The translations under genes and the position numbers were made by a program. Below, one piece after another: positions 1,409 through 9,257 of a stretch of 12,895 nt of DNA. The DNA lies in the UHGV virus genome UHGV-0267677. One strand, 5' to 3'. Position 1 is the stretch's first letter, and each line of letters begins with the position of its first letter. The stretch is from a virus. The notes beneath the pieces were generated by a model. It was not told where the DNA came from and ran no database searches. It worked only from the letters and a program-made list of their open reading frames with translations.

Positions 1409-2127
1409 AAAACATCGCCGCACAGATGATTAACTTTGACCGTGAGCAGATGCGTCGGATCGCCAACAACATGCCGGAACAGTACGACGAAAAGCCGCAG
1501 GTACAGCAGGTAGCGCAGATCATCAATGGTGTGTTCAGCCAGTTACTGGCAACTTTCCCGGCGAGCCTGGCTAACCGTGACCAGAATGAACTGAACGAAA
1601 TCCGCCGCCAGTGGGTTCTGGCTTTCCGGGAAAACGGGATCACCACGATGGAACAGGTTAACGCAGGAATGCGCGTAGCCCGTCGGCAGAATCGACCATT
1701 CCTGCCATCACCCGGGCAGTTTGTCGCCTGGTGCCGGGAAGAAGCATCCGTTACCGCCGGGCTGCCAAACGCCAGCGAGCTGGTTGATATGGTTTACGAG
1801 TATTGCCGGAAGCGAGGCCTGTATCCGGATGCGGAGTCTTATCCGTGGAAATCAAACGCGCACTACTGGCTGGTTACCAACCTGTATCAGAACATGCGGG
1901 CCAATGCGTTGACTGACGCGGAATTACGGCGCAAGGCTGCCGATGAACTGTCCTGTATGACCGCACGAATTAACCGTGGTGAGGCTATACCTGAACCAGT
2001 AAAACAACTTCCTGTCATGGGCGGTAGACCTCTAAATCGTGCACAGGCTCTGGCGAAGATCGCAGAAATCAAAGCTAAGTTTGGGCTGAAAGGGGGAAAA
2101 GCATTATATAAAAAGATTTCGAAATAA
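1405..2127 (+). CDS. P: Replication protein P (DnaB helicase loader), lambda-type
   Basis: 240-aa translation MKNIAAQMINFDREQMRRIANNMPEQYDEKPQVQQVAQIINGVF... appears almost identical to lambda P from memory. SD GGGGTGGA precedes ATG 1405; stop TAA 2125-2127. Confidence 0.95.
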   Translation: MKNIAAQMINFDREQMRRIANNMPEQYDEKPQVQQVAQIINGVFSQLLATFPASLANRDQNELNEIRRQWVLAFRENGITTMEQVNAGMRVARRQNRPFLPSPGQFVAWCREEASVTAGLPNASELVDMVYEYCRKRGLYPDAESYPWKSNAHYWLVTNLYQNMRANALTDAELRRKAADELSCMTARINRGEAIPEPVKQLPVMGGRPLNRAQALAKIAEIKAKFGLKGGKALYKKISK

Positions 2128-2279
2128 TGCATTGATTTTTATGTTTTTTTCTGTTCAGGTTCTATTGGTTGAAATTAATGCCACTGGGAATAAAAGTTTT
2201 AGCAAAGCCCTTCAAAAATGTTGCTGTTGTAAGCTAGAATAATGCGCCAAATTTACATTGCTGAAACCTGGAATATAGG

Positions 2280-2945
2280 ATGAAAATCATACAGTTACAA
2301 ATGGTATTTTTTTACGATTCATCAACGACTGTCGATTTCGATGGAATGTCGTATTTTATTAGGCAAACTTTTAAAAAGAAGGCAGGTATTGAATTAACAA
2401 ACAATATGATGTTGGGCGTTTTACCTATGGATACCCCACCAGAGATTCCTCGTCTCCAATTGTTTTCTATAGATAATAAATTTAGAGTTCAATGCTCACT
2501 GCAGAGATGTGATTTGTTTTTTGAACGTATGGATTCTGAGCAAGAGGTAGACTTACATTTGTTTCAAGAAGTTTTCGATAGTGTGGTTGATATCCATAAA
2601 GAACTCAATAAGGATATTATCAGAATAGGCTTGGTGGCCGTTAAGGCGGAATTAAACAACAACCCAAACAAAGAGATTGTTAAAAACTATCTTAGTAACA
2701 ACATGCAGAATGATAGCGAAATAATTGAAGATATTAATTTAATGTATAATAAAAAATTCGAGTTTGAGCAGTCCATATTTAATTGTCATTTGTCGATTAT
2801 GTCAGGATATGATCTTGTCAGAGAACAACCAATGCTAGTGAAACAGATCGATGTGAATACAATCGAGAGTTTTATATTTAAAGATAAATATACCGCAGAA
2901 AAAACAAAAAAAGCCTTTTTAAGTAAAGTGAATGAAATTCAGTAA
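2280..2945 (+). CDS. Hypothetical protein, cargo gene 1 of the AT-rich island (no recognisable motif; start uncertain)
   Basis: 221-aa ORF in a strongly AT-rich block with a Lys/Asn/Ile-rich composition. ATG 2280 has poor SD spacing (AGGA abuts the ATG), so a downstream in-frame start is possible. Ends TAA 2943-2945, 14 nt before gene 2. No antisense ORF of comparable quality. Confidence 0.55.
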   Translation: MKIIQLQMVFFYDSSTTVDFDGMSYFIRQTFKKKAGIELTNNMMLGVLPMDTPPEIPRLQLFSIDNKFRVQCSLQRCDLFFERMDSEQEVDLHLFQEVFDSVVDIHKELNKDIIRIGLVAVKAELNNNPNKEIVKNYLSNNMQNDSEIIEDINLMYNKKFEFEQSIFNCHLSIMSGYDLVREQPMLVKQIDVNTIESFIFKDKYTAEKTKKAFLSKVNEIQ

Positions 2946-2959
2946 TGTGAGGTGGCTGA

Positions 2960-3919
2960 ATGAATAAGGATGATAATAAAAAGGATATAAAAAGAATTGC
3001 AAATAATAATGCTATAGTCAACGATGACATGGCAAAAAGAACTGCGCATCATTCACTTTATTCTAATTCACAAGTATCGAATAGTACATCTACGTATACA
3101 GGAGGGGTACAAAAAATTAGTAATTTGCAGATAGATAATAAAACTGCAACAGCTTCAAATAAAGAGCGGGAAAGTATATCTATCAAAGACGCGGCACCAC
3201 AAAACTTAATAAAAACCTCTCTTTTTGTTAATGAAAAAGAAATGTTGCATGAAGCTATAAAATACAGTTCAAAAGCAACTGTGCCGGTGATGGATAATAC
3301 TGTCTCTAATGCCATTTTATCTAATTACTTTGTTAATAATAATTCTGAATCTACAATTTCTTTTAATAAAGAGAATGTAAAAAAATATACAAAAAGTGAT
3401 ATTGATAACATCCTCTGGAAAAATATCAATGATCAACTAACCAATTTTTCGCAAGAGTTGAATAAGAGCAAAAAGAATATTAATGATACTAAAAGAAAAA
3501 TAGGTAAGGTAATGTCTTCATTATCTCAGCAAACTGCAAAGATTGAGCAATTTGATGCAACATTATCAAATGCTGAAAAAGATATACATGAGAAAGTTAA
3601 AAGCTTTGAATCGGAAGTAATTACAGCAAGGAACTCAATGCTGGGTGTCATTGCTTTATTTGCTTCTTTCTTTACTTTCATTTCTATTTCAGTAAACGTA
3701 TTTTCTCGCGATATGTCTTTAAGCATGTCAATCTCAGTTTTGTTAGTGATATGGTCGTGCTTAATTAGCTTTATCTTTGTTTTTATGGCAGGGATTAGCA
3801 AGGGAGGAGCTTTTTTTACAAGCTCATCATTTATTAAGCATGCCATTTTTATGGTTGTGCTTTTTATTTCATCTTTCGCACTCCCTAAAGTTATTTTTAA
3901 TATCTTTGCAATTAGCTGA
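2960..3919 (+). CDS. Hypothetical membrane protein, cargo gene 2 (N/S/T-rich N-terminus, coiled-coil-like middle, three C-terminal TM helices)
   Basis: Strong SD GAGGTGG 4 nt upstream of ATG 2960. Hydrophobic segments at about aa 227-247, 255-278 and 293-317. The preceding ~75 aa (KNINDQL...KVKSFESEV) is heptad-like and charged. Confidence 0.7.
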   Translation: MNKDDNKKDIKRIANNNAIVNDDMAKRTAHHSLYSNSQVSNSTSTYTGGVQKISNLQIDNKTATASNKERESISIKDAAPQNLIKTSLFVNEKEMLHEAIKYSSKATVPVMDNTVSNAILSNYFVNNNSESTISFNKENVKKYTKSDIDNILWKNINDQLTNFSQELNKSKKNINDTKRKIGKVMSSLSQQTAKIEQFDATLSNAEKDIHEKVKSFESEVITARNSMLGVIALFASFFTFISISVNVFSRDMSLSMSISVLLVIWSCLISFIFVFMAGISKGGAFFTSSSFIKHAIFMVVLFISSFALPKVIFNIFAIS

Positions 3920-4020
3920 CTATCAGATGTTATCTTCAGTTGTTTAGGGTTGATTTAAAAGCGAATCTTAATATTTTCAAGTTTTGAATTTAGAAATAAA
4001 AAAGCCATAATATTGTCATC

Positions 4021-4148
4021 GGAGCCTAAAAAACTCCGGTGACTTCTGCGCTAAACGGGGACGTTTATGCGCACACACAATCCAAACTCTCATCTCCATT
4101 CACAGATGCAGAAATGCACCTACGATTTTTTACATTCGGTGTTTTACT
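4021..4148 (+). repeat. Direct repeat copy 1 (~125 bp, ~90% identical to copy 2), containing a conserved GGGA-loop hairpin
   Basis: ggagcctaaaaaactccggtgacttctgcgctaaacggggacgtttatgcgcaca...ccattcacagatgcagaaatgcacct.cgatttttt recurs at 5954-6078 with a few substitutions and no indels. Internal imperfect hairpin tgcgctaaacg-GGGA-cgttta(t)gcgca. Confidence 0.85.
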
Positions 4149-4550
4149 TCGACAGCCAGAATTGGGAGTCTCTATTCGTCTGGCGGCTAAAGGTGATATG
4201 GAAATCGTTATGTTTTGGCCTGAGGTAGTTGTAACTGTTGTAGCAACTATGGCTGTGATCATCATGGTGTCCATTTACTGGGGTTGACGACATGATTTAT
4301 CCGGCGCTATATTCTGTGCGTTGCCGCAAAATCGGCACACGGGATTGGCGTCCCGGGATACTACTCAACGCATACCGCGTTAAGCGGTTTTTTTGTGCGC
4401 TAAGCACGGCTATGCCCAAATTATGGTGGGCTGTGTGAGGGCTTCTTCGGAAGCGCCGGGTTTGAGTAGCCGGTTACGCCAACCTTACACAGTTCACCAC
4501 CAGTCGATTGGCGTCGTTGGTGGTGATGGTTAACCTGATGAGGTGATACT

Positions 4551-5159
4551 ATGACTACTCAATTAGCATTCCACAAAACGACGTTTACCCCGATTTGCCA
4601 CAATAACAGAATTTGGCTTACTGCCACTGAAGTTGGTTTAGCACTGGAATATGCGGACGATAAAGCAGTTCAGCGCATTTACTCTCGGCACTCAGATGAA
4701 TTCACAGATATGATGACAAGGGTGGTCAAAGTGACCACCCCTCGTGGAATGCAGGAGTCTCGAGTATTTAGCCTTCGCGGAGCCCATTTGATCGCCATGT
4801 TTGCTCGTACTCCTGTGGCCAAAGAATTCCGCCGCTGGGTTCTGGATATTCTCGATCGAGAAGTTCAACAATCCCCAATCACAAAACAATTCACTGATAA
4901 CGAACTTTGCACACTCGCCTGGTTATGGCGAGCAAGTGATACGATGTTAACCGCCTGCCAGAACGTTACGCCCCTTCTTCAGGTCGCAGAGCATCGCGAA
5001 GCAGGTAGATTCACTTCAATCGAACAAGAATATCCTCGGATACTCAACAGGGCGCGAGAAATCCTTGCCAGAGAAACGGCGCATGTAAAATTCCAACCGT
5101 GGCAGGATGATAAGTGGAGTCGTGTGTTACCATATTTCCGTCAGAATCTGTTGCAATAA
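4551..5159 (+). CDS. Bro-N domain protein (phage antirepressor/KilA-N-like DNA-binding family), C-terminal half unassigned
   Basis: SD GAGGTGA 5 nt upstream of ATG 4551. N-terminal region ...NRIWLTATEVGLALEY...RVFSLRGAHLIAMFARTPVAKEFRRWVLDIL fits the Bro-N signature I recall (...YSLIMRSRKPEAKAFRKWV...). Confidence 0.75.
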   Translation: MTTQLAFHKTTFTPICHNNRIWLTATEVGLALEYADDKAVQRIYSRHSDEFTDMMTRVVKVTTPRGMQESRVFSLRGAHLIAMFARTPVAKEFRRWVLDILDREVQQSPITKQFTDNELCTLAWLWRASDTMLTACQNVTPLLQVAEHREAGRFTSIEQEYPRILNRAREILARETAHVKFQPWQDDKWSRVLPYFRQNLLQ

Positions 5160-5393: not shown

Positions 5394-5903
5394 ATGATGT
5401 GGAACTTTGACAGTGCCGACTTAAGTGCAATAGCAGCAGGCATTTCTGCGTTTGGCACATTAGCCGCAGCGGGGTCGGCGCTTGCAAGTTGGTACACGTC
5501 AAAAAAAGCGCTGCAGCTACAAAATAGAGTTTACCTTTATGAGTCTTTAAAGGCTTGCGCTGAGAGAGCCAATTCATCAGCTAAAGATAAGCGCGGATCT
5601 GAATGGAGCGTTAATGATGCAGCGGATATCATCAGGTGCCTAGTACGGGCGATGGAGATCATCAAGCAGGATAGCCAGCAGAAAGAAGGTAATCAGGCAT
5701 TAATGTTGAAACAGTACTTTGTTAATCTGCTAATAATGGAACTGTACGAGGAAGTTCATAACGGTGATGCGGCTGATTCTGTTTTTAAAAGGACGGAACC
5801 TACACAAGTACTTGATAACTTATGGGGCAAATGGCAGGAGGCTATAGCTTTTTTTGATATTTGGAATTACCCAGTTGCGACTGAGGAAGACTTGGCAGAC
5901 TAA
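5394..5903 (+). CDS. Hypothetical protein with one N-terminal transmembrane/signal-anchor helix
   Basis: SD AAGGTG 5 nt upstream of ATG 5394. aa ~10-33 (LSAIAAGISAFGTLAAAGSALASWY) is hydrophobic; the remainder is soluble and acidic. Possible sigma70-like promoter TTGATT-17-GATATT at 5336-5364. Lies between the terminator and repeat copy 2. Confidence 0.6.
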   Translation: MMWNFDSADLSAIAAGISAFGTLAAAGSALASWYTSKKALQLQNRVYLYESLKACAERANSSAKDKRGSEWSVNDAADIIRCLVRAMEIIKQDSQQKEGNQALMLKQYFVNLLIMELYEEVHNGDAADSVFKRTEPTQVLDNLWGKWQEAIAFFDIWNYPVATEEDLAD

Positions 5904-8159: not shown

Positions 8160-9257
8160 TTAGAACTGGTAAACCAGACCTACAGCAACGATGTCATCAG
8201 TGCTTACACCGAGTGCTTTAGTGAAGTCATTTTTGTCAAGCAGGTTGATTTTGTAATCAACGAAAGTAGACATATTTTTGTTGAAGTAATAGGTTGCACC
8301 TACATCAACATATTTGACTAAGTCCTGATCGCCCCATACTCCAAGATCCTTACCTTTAGATTGCAGGTAAGCAACGGACGGACGCAGACCGAAATCGAAC
8401 TGATATTGTGCAACAGCTTCGAAGTTTTGGGCTTTATTAGCAACGAAGTGATCAGCAAATACAGTCATATTCTGGGTTTCAGAATAGGTAGTGGCCAGGT
8501 AAATGTTGTTAGCGTCATATTTCAGACCTGCGGCCCAAACTTCTGCATTTTTACCGGAAGCAAATACTTCAGGAAGAACTTTCCCTGCATTAACTTGAGT
8601 GTCGGTACGATCAGATTTCGCATAAGTTGCACCGATACCGAATCCTTCGTATTCATAGGTAGCAGAGAAACCGAAGCCATCACCGTTACCTTCAGTGTAG
8701 TTATCGAAATCGCTACGATCGTTTTTGCCTTGGTACTGAGCAGCAAAGTTCAGACCATCAACCAGACCAAAGAAGTCGTTGTTACGATAGGTTGCAACAC
8801 CAGTGGTGCGACCAGTCATGAACACATCTGTTTGGGTCCAGGTATCGCCACCGAATTCTGGCAGAACGTCAGTCCACGCACCGATGTCGTATGCTACACC
8901 GTAGTTACGGCCGTAATCGATTGAGCCGTAGTCACCGAATTTCAGGCCTGCAAATGCAAGACGGGTTTTGTCTTTGGAGGAACCTTGAGATTCAGCGCGG
9001 TTGCCTTTGAATTCATATTCCCACTGACCGAAACCAGTCAGTTGATCGTTGATTTGGGTTTCACCTTTGAAGCCAAGACGGGCATAAGTAGTATCACCAT
9101 CATCTGCATCATTAGAGGAGAAGTAGTGCTTAGCATTAACTTTCCCGTACAGATCCAGCTTGTTACTGTCTTTATTATAAATTTCAGCTGCCTGAGCAGA
9201 CATCGCCATCAGTACTGATGCAGCTACAGCAGAAATTGCCACTGTTAATTTTTTCAT
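8160..9257 (-). CDS. nmpC: Outer-membrane general porin, NmpC/Lc (OmpC/OmpF family), apparently intact
   Basis: 365 aa with signal peptide [30 protein letters not shown], the typical porin block LYGKV...[26 protein letters not shown], and C-terminal ...VGLVYQF. Sits between Q and the holin on the opposite strand, as nmpC does in DLP12. Confidence 0.95.

What the first reader, a model, noticed from the sequence alone, without database searches (positions are those of the whole stretch)
2280..2945. Cargo gene 1: 221-aa soluble protein with ambiguous start and no recognisable motif
The first ATG (2280) sits directly on its AGGA with no spacer, and several in-frame Met codons follow, so the true N-terminus is uncertain. 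The protein has no Walker, HxH or nuclease-like motif I can see. Its tight linkage to gene 2 suggests a sensor, regulator or antitoxin partner. A candidate promoter (TTCAAA-18-TAGAAT at 2211-2240) lies just upstream in the island rather than in phage-like sequence, suggesting the cassette brings its own expression signals.
Basis: partly seen in the sequence, partly recalled or inferred. Interest (0 to 1): 0.5.

Follow-up and report, generated by a model that had tools for sequence, protein, structure and literature searches.

The report
Conserved first gene of defence-like cassette
The ORF at 2280-2945 is a real, well-conserved gene for a soluble protein of an unannotated family that always sits first in small mobile operons ahead of interchangeable toxin-like partners (here a membrane protein), so it is most likely the sensing or controlling half of an untested prophage anti-phage or toxin-antitoxin module.

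Summary
The ORF is real. It encodes a 221-aa soluble, acidic protein. ATG 2280 is the true start: seven aligned homologues (44-64% identity) begin at the same Met, and eight homologous loci (down to 27% identity) carry a GGA/GGG motif 4-8 nt upstream (here GGAA 2270-2273). Residues 2-12 form a confidently modelled first beta-strand.

The gene and its partner (2960-3919) fill a 1.9-kb, ~30% GC island (2094-4003). The island replaces ren between replication gene P and the nin region of a lambda-like E. coli prophage. In a sister prophage that slot holds a SNIPE-type defence nuclease.

No Pfam, NCBIfam, PADLOC or PDB sequence match exists. The AlphaFold model (pLDDT 93.9) is an internally duplicated TBP/AdoMetDC-like alpha/beta fold with no close solved relative.

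Exhaustive searches show a large dark family (152 representatives; about 90 metagenome and viral loci). It is always the first gene of a tight operon. The partners vary: coiled-coil plus 3-TM proteins, small 2-TM proteins, or a soluble protein followed by a PIN or HEPN toxin. Several loci lie beside restriction-modification, GmrSD, GajB-like and other defence genes.

Best reading (about 50%): a conserved sensor or neutraliser subunit controlling swappable effectors. Nothing has been tested experimentally. The proposed promoter exists but scores no better than chance.

The parts
2094..4003 (.). Cargo island of about 1.9 kb and about 30% GC. It replaces the last 4 codons of lambda-type P, ren and the downstream spacer. 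It contains only gene 1, gene 2 and their flanks.
   Evidence: blastn junctions against sister prophages and lambda lie at window 2093/2094 and 4003/4004. GC is 0.26-0.36 inside the island and 0.46-0.58 outside. The full cassette occurs in 21 of 5426 complete E. coli genomes.
2211..2240 (+). Candidate sigma-70 promoter TTCAAA-18-TAGAAT. Its -10 box ends 39 nt before the ATG. Unproven.
   Evidence: The scan scores it 9 of 12, but such matches are not enriched over shuffles. It lies inside the island. -10-like boxes are readable upstream of most homologues, and 7 of 11 pass the scan.
2270..2273 (+). Shine-Dalgarno-like GGAA, 6 nt upstream of ATG 2280. This is the likely ribosome-binding element, rather than the AGGA at 2277-2280.
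   Evidence: A GGA/GGG motif sits 4-8 nt upstream of the aligned start in eight homologous loci sharing 27-64% protein identity with gene 1.
2280..2945 (+). Gene 1: a 221-aa soluble acidic protein. It is the founding member here of an unannotated family with an internally duplicated TBP/AdoMetDC-like alpha/beta fold.
2949..2955 (+). Shine-Dalgarno GAGGTGG for gene 2, 4 nt before its ATG. The intergenic gap is 14 nt.
   Evidence: Read from the sequence. Gaps in the homologous gene-2-type loci are 2-16 nt.
2960..3919 (+). Gene 2: a 319-aa partner protein. Its N-terminal ~140 aa are variable and low-complexity. Residues ~141-220 are helical or coiled-coil-like. The C-terminus is a strongly conserved 3-TM module.
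   Evidence: It co-occurs with gene 1 in every locus with downstream sequence.
3620..3904 (+). Conserved 3-TM region of gene 2 (aa ~221-315; TM helices at ~226-248, 254-278, 291-315), carrying the motif RNSxLGxIALFAxFFTFxSxxVNxF. Proposed effector part.
   Evidence: Hydropathy analysis. Residues 221-300 are 78-92% identical across 25 cluster representatives, against 12-22% for residues 1-140. The motif is retained in partners from Yersinia and from a metagenome locus.

Best explanation
Gene 1 (2280-2945, start ATG 2280) encodes the conserved cytoplasmic control subunit of a two-gene, horizontally acquired cassette. The cassette sits in the P/ren-nin cargo slot of a lambda-like prophage.

Shown:
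- It is a real gene under purifying selection and encodes a soluble protein with a duplicated TBP/AdoMetDC-like alpha/beta fold.
- Its family is always the first gene of a compact operon.
- The downstream partners are interchangeable. They are a coiled-coil plus 3-TM protein (here), a small 2-TM protein, or a soluble 'middle' protein followed by a PIN or HEPN RNase-type toxin.
- The operons lie on prophages, integrase- or IS-flanked islets, and next to known defence genes.

Inferred:
- The protein binds its partner and keeps it inactive, and/or senses a signal of phage infection through the conserved polar patch (Q7, E55, R58, S63, D65, R76, D78, R115, N168, D191, N193).
- On triggering, the highly conserved 3-TM C-terminus of gene 2 damages or depolarises the inner membrane. 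That would abort infection or exclude the superinfecting phage.
- The logic resembles lambda RexA/RexB, or a PanA-type antitoxin paired with a membrane-disrupting toxin.
- Expression in the lysogen probably comes from a promoter inside the island.
For: Real gene and correct start:
-; dN/dS 0.12-0.22.

Island and hotspot:
- The junctions are mapped and GC is low.
- The cassette is rare and sporadic: 21 of 5426 E. coli genomes. It also occurs in Klebsiella aerogenes, Citrobacter, Leclercia, Kosakonia, Erwinia, Scandinavium and Yersinia.
- Most of these are prophages, with the cassette after P or beside Q where the context was read.
- The same slot in a sister prophage carries a DUF4041 + T5orf172/GIY-YIG protein. 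That is the architecture of the experimentally proven SNIPE defence nuclease (PMC13190303).

Obligate pairing:
- Every locus with downstream sequence has the pair.

Family-wide modularity:
- There are 152 representatives at E<=1e-3.
- About 90 HMM-verified metagenome and viral loci were recovered.
- The partner starts -38 to +23 nt from the stop codon and falls into at least 8 unrelated families.
- Third genes include PIN (Pfam 1.9e-10 and 8.7e-12) and HEPN (PDB profile 2.6e-6).
- Within a class, the gene-1 homologues can share as little as 28-31% identity, so the linkage is old.

Defence neighbours:
- Type I R-M S subunit, Eco57I-like methylase and GmrSD_N.
- DUF1156 methylase plus PLD-helicase, GajB-like helicase, PDC-S15 and a Cas4-like nuclease.
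- Integrase- and IS-flanked copies.

Gene 2 as effector:
- Its TM helices are 78-92% conserved while its N-terminus is only 12-22% conserved.

Precedent:
- Panacea antitoxins pair with many unrelated toxins. These include membrane disruptors and one toxin with a coiled-coil N-terminus and C-terminal TM helices (PMC8832971).
Against: - There is no experimental datum of any kind: no expression, toxicity or phage phenotype.
- There is no homology to any known defence, toxin or antitoxin protein.
- A dozen near-invariant polar residues on beta-strands would also fit an enzyme active site. Gene 1 could therefore be an effector or modifier rather than a sensor or neutraliser.
- Most partner families have no recognisable toxin domain.
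- Some family members lie among housekeeping-looking genes, read by eye only.
- The defence-island association was not tested statistically.
- The internal promoter is not distinguishable from chance, so expression in the lysogen is unproven.
- Which protein is toxic, and whether the two interact, was not tested. No multimer prediction was available.
Confidence: 0.5

Rival explanations
1. Plain toxin-antitoxin or addiction module. Gene 2 is a membrane toxin and gene 1 its labile antitoxin. The pair stabilises the prophage or island by post-segregational killing and has no phage-sensing role.
For: - The operon is tight and bicistronic, with the conserved soluble gene first.
- PIN and HEPN toxins occur in sister operons.
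- Copies sit on mobile elements.
- Panacea-type antitoxin precedent.
Against: - At 221-245 aa, with a rigid duplicated fold and a conserved polar patch, the protein is larger and more conserved than typical labile antitoxins.
- Many sister cassettes have three genes.
- The cassette sits in a slot that holds a proven-type defence gene in a sister prophage, and other family members lie beside defence genes. Many TA systems also turn out to defend against phage, so this rival overlaps the best explanation.
Confidence: 0.2
2. Gene 1 is an enzyme and the true effector or a signal generator (for example nucleotide- or metabolite-modifying). The downstream proteins are its regulators, anchors or immunity factors.
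For: - Near-invariant polar residues lie on strands: R76, D78, R115, N168, D191 and N193, plus E55, R58, S63 and D65.
Against: - The matches are only topological: TM-score <=0.41 and 4-10% identity.
- No known catalytic motif was found.
- PIN, HEPN and TM partners are themselves classic effectors, which makes a second effector less economical.
Confidence: 0.12
3. A phage life-cycle or entry-exclusion function rather than abortive infection. Gene 2 would act at the inner membrane to block DNA injection by a superinfecting phage (as Sie-type proteins do) or to modulate lysis or lysogeny. Gene 1 would be its cytoplasmic accessory or chaperone.
For: - In Enterobacterales the pair is found almost only in lambdoid prophage early-right or nin regions.
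- Gene 2 is an inner-membrane protein with a variable cytoplasmic N-terminus.
- Membrane-level exclusion is common among prophages (discussion in PMC13190303).
Against: - Family members outside Enterobacterales pair with cytoplasmic PIN and HEPN proteins and lie in non-phage defence islands. This points to a general toxin-control role rather than an entry block.
- The cassette is absent from most lambdoid prophages, so it is not a core function.
Confidence: 0.13
4. Non-functional ORF, decaying remnant or annotation artefact.
For: The function is unknown, the gene is AT-rich, and the ribosome-binding site is weak.
Against: - Purifying selection.
- 152 family representatives.
- A high-confidence fold, pLDDT 93.9 in all five models.
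- Intact in all complete copies examined. One genome matches only 40% of the query and has an IS1 annotated under the match, which may be a disrupted copy.
Confidence: 0.02

Closest known systems
Lambda RexA/RexB exclusion system
   Same: A prophage-borne two-gene module. A soluble cytoplasmic protein is encoded immediately upstream of a multi-pass inner-membrane protein. The proposed logic is also the same: a sensor activates a membrane effector and infection is aborted.
   Different: - No sequence relationship. hhalign of the family profile against RexA gives probability 0.3%, and BLASTP of gene 2 against RexB finds nothing.
- RexB is a 144-aa protein described as four-pass (established knowledge; topology not checked here) with no long cytoplasmic domain. 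Gene 2 has ~220 cytoplasmic residues plus 3 TM helices.
- The locus differs: the P/ren-nin slot rather than beside cI.
- The gene-1 family also pairs with PIN and HEPN partners.
Panacea (PanA, DUF4065) hyperpromiscuous antitoxin with diverse PanT toxins (PMC8832971; PMC10440598)
   Same: - One conserved domain is paired in small operons with many unrelated toxin families. These include membrane disruptors and a toxin with a coiled-coil N-terminus and C-terminal TM helices.
- The antitoxin-first gene order is common.
- Copies are found on prophages.
   Different: - No DUF4065 match for gene 1 or for any of 51 family members.
- The predicted fold is a duplicated TBP/AdoMetDC-like alpha/beta domain.
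- Many sister cassettes are tripartite.
- Neutralisation has not been shown for this family.
Tripartite toxin-antitoxin-chaperone systems (TAC; CmdTAC = PD-T4-9; PMC9519451)
   Same: Three-gene architecture with an RNase-type or other toxin plus two accessory proteins. The function is abortive-infection defence.
   Different: - Only 1 of 135 family members touches the PADLOC PD-T4-9_C model (E 5e-5).
- The window cassette has two genes.
SNIPE (TM + DUF4041 + GIY-YIG membrane-bound nuclease; PMC13190303)
   Same: A protein with the DUF4041 + GIY-YIG part of this architecture occupies the same prophage slot in a sister E. coli prophage. Both are prophage cargo with a membrane component.
   Different: The proteins are unrelated. 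SNIPE is a single polypeptide nuclease, whereas gene 1 and gene 2 have no nuclease domain.
TBP-like / AdoMetDC-like duplicated alpha/beta fold proteins
   Different: - TM-score is only 0.28-0.41 and identity 4-10%.
- No pyruvoyl-processing or DNA-binding features were demonstrated.
- The family is mostly acidic: median pI 5.4, with 79% of members below 7.

Membership tests
RexA/RexB | Sequence or profile homology of the soluble partner to RexA | tested here: not met
   hhalign of A5 against lambda RexA: probability 0.3%, E 0.19 over 15 columns.
RexA/RexB | Homology of the membrane partner to RexB | tested here: not met
   BLASTP of gene 2 against lambda RexB: no alignment at E<=100.
RexA/RexB | Membrane depolarisation and abortive infection on activation | not testable with these tools
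   Needs a membrane-potential dye assay and phage challenge.
Panacea / PanA antitoxins (DUF4065) | Presence of the DUF4065 domain | tested here: not met
   Pfam scans of gene 1 and of 51 family members: no DUF4065 hit.
Panacea / PanA antitoxins (DUF4065) | One conserved domain partnered with many unrelated toxin families in conserved small operons | tested here: met
   At least 8 unrelated partner families, including TM, PIN and HEPN proteins. This is a functional analogy only.
Panacea / PanA antitoxins (DUF4065) | Direct neutralisation of the cognate toxin | not testable with these tools
   Needs co-expression toxicity rescue and a pull-down.
SecB-like chaperone of TAC systems (CmdC / PD-T4-9_C) | Family-level match to SecB or CmdC profiles, or a SecB fold | tested here: not met
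Known anti-phage systems in PADLOC-DB v2.0.0 | HMM match of gene 1 or gene 2 to any system component | tested here: not met
   Zero families at E<=1 for both proteins. Systems described after 2023, such as those of Brenes & Laub 2025, could not be checked because the paper is not held.
AdoMetDC (pyruvoyl decarboxylase) fold | Close structural superposition | tested here: inconclusive
AdoMetDC (pyruvoyl decarboxylase) fold | Autocatalytic Glu-Ser serinolysis site | not tested
No sequence-level match either.
TATA-box-binding-protein-like DNA binders | Saddle-shaped duplicated fold with a basic DNA-binding concave face | tested here: inconclusive
   TBP matches at TM 0.28-0.32. The family is acidic, with median pI 5.4, which argues against DNA binding.
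Prophage defence-hotspot cargo (operational class) | Variable, low-GC insert at a fixed backbone position that carries known defence genes in related prophages | tested here: met
   Junctions at 2094 and 4003. GC about 0.30. The same slot holds a DUF4041 + GIY-YIG (SNIPE-type) protein in L030 and a different ORF in L031.

The most novel reading that the evidence does not exclude
The gene-1 family is a previously unrecognised, widespread 'universal adaptor' of prokaryotic conflict systems. It would be a TBP/AdoMetDC-like duplicated domain that senses a phage cue, or a small ligand, through its invariant polar patch. It would then gate whichever effector is encoded downstream (3-TM pore, 2-TM peptide, PIN or HEPN RNase). 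That would define a new multi-architecture defence family found from enterobacterial prophages to environmental defence islands.
Probability: 0.35. Interest if true: 0.75.

Novelty: new variant of a known kind. Interest (0 to 1): 0.55.

Why it matters
If the cassette defends against phage, it adds a new protein family to the catalogue of prophage-borne immunity. Neither component is covered by Pfam, NCBIfam or PADLOC v2.

The family's constant first gene with swappable TM, PIN and HEPN partners offers a clean natural experiment. It could show how one sensing or neutralising module is rewired to different effectors.

The work also marks the P/ren-nin junction of lambdoid prophages as a cargo slot that exchanges defence genes. 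A SNIPE-type nuclease sits there in a sister prophage.

The system is small (1.9 kb), comes from E. coli and can be tested directly.

Tried and rejected
Homology and family tests that failed:
- RexA/RexB homology: none.
- SecB/CmdC chaperone lead from one PADLOC hit: not a family signal, 1 of 135 members.
- Panacea/DUF4065 and every other Pfam, NCBIfam or PADLOC family, for gene 1 and for 51-135 relatives: none.
- Profile search of the family against all PDB sequences: zero hits at E<=10.
- tblastn against 50,697 deposited phage genomes: no match.

Fold searches:
- afdb50 was unavailable.
- PDB and BFVD gave only topological matches. One unnamed viral protein scored TM 0.59/0.64.

Collection scans:
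- The search for related loci on genome contigs: the A3 alignment was too divergent, and A2 gave no confirmed locus.
- My first degenerate DNA pattern was 1 nt too long. That wasted the second genome-contig scan and one viral scan. L033-L048 are false hits, as shown.
- The corrected 90-nt pattern worked.

Other dead ends:
- Longer family members (P0039, P0100, P0152 and others) read by eye as upstream read-through rather than domain fusions. This was not tested, so they give no Rosetta-stone clue.
- hhalign among partner families and the gene 2 N-terminus: no significant relation, best E 0.007-0.04.
- Pfam on ten partner-family representatives: nothing above threshold.
- The F11 third-gene family: no PDB or Pfam match.

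Literature:
- Accession numbers are not mentioned in any held paper.
- Brenes & Laub 2025 is not held.
Full report
**Setting**

The window is the early-right and late-regulatory part of a lambda-like E. coli prophage. In order it carries:
- O (389-1408, PF04492) and P (1405-2127, PF06992);
- a low-GC stretch;
- a Bro-N/P22AR antirepressor-like gene (4551-5159);
- ybcN/ninB-type, ninE, ybcO and rusA genes, Q, an ompC-like porin, and the lysis genes.

A 100% identical copy lies in E. coli AHB21, beside an integrase next to ybhC.

**Observation**

- ORF 2280-2945 (+) is 221 aa.
- AGGA at 2277-2280 overlaps the ATG.
- In-frame Met codons follow at residues 8, 23, 43, 44 and 50.
- TTCAAA-18-TAGAAT lies at 2211-2240.
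- The protein has no hydrophobic segment and pI 5.1.
- It matches nothing in Pfam, NCBIfam or PADLOC. Its only hit is PHROG 24110 of unknown function.

**Start codon**

- Seven aligned homologues with 44-64% identity begin at the same aligned Met, and residues M1, I3, Q7, F10, F11 and Y12 are invariant among them.
- Eight homologous loci, reaching down to a 27%-identical Yersinia locus, have a GGA/GGG motif 4-8 nt upstream. In the window this is GGAA at 2270-2273 with a 6-nt spacer. The abutting AGGA is therefore incidental.
- In the deep-alignment AlphaFold model, residues 2-12 form the first beta-strand, with block pLDDT 97.
- A start at Met8 or Met23 would delete part or all of this strand.

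**Is it a real gene?**

- dN/dS is 0.12-0.22 for the pairs in which dS is not saturated, for both gene 1 and gene 2.
- Every complete copy fetched is full length.
- The exact protein is recorded on 421 contigs, always named 'hypothetical protein'.
- One of 5426 complete genomes matches only 40% of the query and has an IS1 annotated under the match, which may be a disrupted copy.

**The island**

- blastn against two sister prophages and lambda places the junctions at 2093/2094 and 4003/4004.
- The left junction lies inside P. The last four lambda-type codons (GASV*) are replaced by GGKALYKKISK*, and ren is missing.
- GC is 0.26-0.36 inside the island and about 0.5 outside.
- The island contains only gene 1 and gene 2 (2960-3919). 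They are 14 nt apart, and gene 2 has a good Shine-Dalgarno sequence (GAGGTGG).
- The full cassette is present in 21 of 5426 complete E. coli genomes at 98.9-100% identity.
- In sister prophages the slot holds other cargo.
  - One has ren plus a 500-aa DUF4041 + T5orf172/MUG113 protein. That domain architecture is described for SNIPE, an experimentally validated membrane-bound anti-phage nuclease (PMC13190303).
  - Another has ren plus a 472-aa ORF with no Pfam match.
- The slot therefore behaves as an exchangeable cargo or defence hotspot.

**Promoter**

- The hexamers exist and lie inside the island.
- The scan finds 17 comparable matches in 2.6 kb, against 10.3 +/- 4.1 in shuffles.
- -10-like boxes can be read 12-39 nt upstream of the ATG in most divergent homologues, and 7 of 11 pass the scan. 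That agrees with self-contained expression, but the sequence is AT-rich, so this is weak evidence.
- No terminator-like site lies between P and gene 1.
- The first good terminator-like site downstream (4374-4388) belongs to an isrK sRNA.

**Partner gene**

- Gene 2 has about 220 cytoplasmic residues. Residues 1-140 are low-complexity and poorly conserved (12-22% identity to the reference).
- Residues 141-220 give only weak Pfam matches to coiled-coil families and are 29-52% conserved.
- Three TM helices follow, and residues 221-300 are 78-92% conserved.
- That level of TM conservation suggests a functional membrane module rather than a simple anchor.
- The motif RNSxLGxIALFAxFFTFxSxxVNxF survives in partners of gene-1 homologues that are only 27-32% identical, from Yersinia enterocolitica and from a metagenome locus.
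- Every locus with a gene-1 homologue and enough downstream DNA has a tightly following partner gene; in the enterobacterial, Yersinia and L014 loci it is a gene-2 homologue 2-16 nt away.
- In the Klebsiella, Kosakonia and L004 loci the pair follows P or precedes the nin/Q genes of a lambdoid prophage. In the Citrobacter loci it lies about 1.2 kb after a NinB gene in a prophage remnant. The Leclercia locus shows no phage gene within the flank read.

**Fold**

- With 5 sequences the model was unstable, with pLDDT from 81.7 down to 39.6 across the five models.
- With 135 family members all five models converge at pLDDT 93.6-93.9 and pTM 0.89.
- The topology is beta-alpha-beta-beta-beta-beta-alpha repeated twice.
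- The best solved matches are only topological:
  - TBP (TM 0.28-0.32).
- In BFVD one unnamed 202-aa viral protein matches at TM 0.59/0.64.
- A family profile finds no PDB sequence at E<=10.

**The family**

- An exhaustive HMMER search of 1.84 billion representatives gives 152 hits at E<=1e-3, nearly all 215-245 aa.
- The family signature is Q7, F11, P49, P53, E55, I56, P57, R58, S63, D65, R76, D78, R115, G117, N168, D191 and N193. N193 is invariant in 135 of 135 members.
- The spacing from P49 to D78 is fixed.
- None of 51-135 members hits Pfam, NCBIfam or PADLOC, apart from isolated chance-level matches.
- The family is mostly acidic, with median pI 5.4. That argues against a TBP-like DNA-binding role.

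**Family context (the key result)**

- A 90-nt degenerate pattern for the P49-D78 motif was verified on known members.
- It recovered about 90 HMM-confirmed members in metagenome and viral contigs.
- In every case with downstream sequence, the family member is the first gene of a compact operon. The next ORF starts -38 to +23 nt from its stop codon.
- The partner differs between operons:
  1. the gene-2 family (coiled coil plus 3 TM);
  2. small 2-TM proteins of 111-122 aa;
  3. other coiled-coil plus TM proteins;
  4. a soluble 190-240-aa protein, often followed by a 150-218-aa protein with a weak HEPN match;
  5. a 318-aa protein followed by a 142-aa HEPN protein (profile against PDB HEPN chains, E 2.6e-6);
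  6. a 236-250-aa protein followed by a 131-aa protein with an HPRHANI motif;
  7. a 170-aa protein followed by a PIN-domain protein (Pfam 1.9e-10 and 8.7e-12).
- The partner families are not detectably related to one another and have no Pfam match.
- Within each class the gene-1 homologues can be as little as 28-31% identical, so these linkages are ancient.
- Neighbours within a few kb include:
  - a type I R-M specificity subunit, an Eco57I-like methylase and GmrSD_N;
  - a DUF1156 methylase (3e-247) with a PLD-helicase (2e-137);
  - a GajB-like helicase (1.6e-74), PDC-S15 (9e-41) and a Cas4-like nuclease.
- Other copies are flanked by an integrase or by IS transposase genes.
- Some neighbours looked like housekeeping genes when read by eye.
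- No enrichment statistic was computed.

**Interpretation**

- A constant first gene with interchangeable toxin-like downstream genes, on mobile elements and beside defence genes, is the pattern seen in two known kinds of system.
  - One is sensor or regulator plus effector defence systems.
  - The other is 'hyperpromiscuous' antitoxin domains such as Panacea. Panacea's partners include membrane disruptors and a coiled-coil plus C-terminal-TM toxin (PMC8832971).
- I therefore take gene 1 to be the conserved control subunit (sensor and/or neutraliser), and the 3-TM module of gene 2 to be the effector in this cassette.
- The proposed outcome is abortive infection or exclusion, analogous to lambda RexA/RexB.
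- There is no homology to RexA or RexB.
- Shown: the gene, its start, the fold class, the pairing, the modularity and the context.
- Inferred: binding, sensing, toxicity, membrane damage, the phage phenotype and the promoter.
- The dozen invariant polar residues keep an enzymatic role open.

**Novelty and score**

- The components match no described family in the libraries available. Post-2023 defence catalogues and Brenes & Laub 2025 could not be checked.
- The logic, however, is a familiar kind: a prophage-borne two- or three-gene toxin-control module.
- I classify it as a new variant of a known kind and score interest at 0.55. It is a concrete, small, E. coli-derived and directly testable candidate. 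Many such candidates exist, and no function has been demonstrated.

Noticed in passing
window 4322-4394 (+) and 4419-4504 (+), upstream of ORF 4551-5159: Two Rfam hits above gathering score: isrK Hfq-binding sRNA (58.7 bits) and C4 antisense RNA (74.8 bits). They lie directly upstream of the Bro-N/P22AR antirepressor-like gene. From memory, this resembles a P1 c4/ant-type or Gifsy IsrK-type antirepressor control module. The terminator-like hairpin at 4374-4388 is the 3' end of isrK.
   Followed up: partly
window 2094-2127 (3' end of P): The island junction lies inside replication gene P. The last four lambda-type codons (GASV*) are replaced by 11 island-derived codons (GGKALYKKISK*), and ren is absent. 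Whether this altered P tail matters for replication is unknown.
   Followed up: partly
window 4003-4135; L030 6390-6522; L031 6908-7040: The ~130 nt just right of the island also match a second site, upstream of ybcN/ninB, in the sister prophages (90% and 81% identity). This looks like a repeated mosaic-joint sequence that could mediate module exchange.
   Followed up: no
L030 2690-4192 (-), E. coli LH09-a, same slot as the island: A 500-aa DUF4041 + T5orf172/MUG113 (GIY-YIG family) protein. These are the two cytoplasmic domains described for the proven SNIPE defence nuclease. It occupies the P/ren-antirepressor slot (PMC13190303).
   Followed up: partly
L031 2969-4387 (-), E. coli LR-50, same slot: A 472-aa ORF with no Pfam match occupies the same slot. 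It is another uncharacterised cargo candidate.
   Followed up: no
L001 6964-8537 (E. coli AHB21, same prophage, outside the window): A HipA-family kinase plus DUF3037 gene pair sits next to the S24-peptidase repressor, where lambda carries rexAB. It may be a second cargo or defence pair in the same prophage.
   Followed up: no
window 5394-5903 (+): A 169-aa ORF matching PHROG 1779 (unknown function, E 4.9e-102), with no Pfam, NCBIfam or PADLOC hit. It lies between the antirepressor-like gene and ybcN.
   Followed up: no
window 8160-9257 (-): A full-length ompC-like porin gene on the opposite strand, between Q and the lysis genes. In the identical genomic copy it is annotated as porin OmpC. It is a further moron in this prophage.
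   Followed up: no
L105, L147, L088, L154, L159 (third gene of gene-1-type operons): A ~131-aa protein family with an invariant PHPRHANI motif follows the gene-1 homologue and a 236-250-aa middle protein. It has no Pfam or PDB match and may be a new toxin or effector domain.
   Followed up: partly
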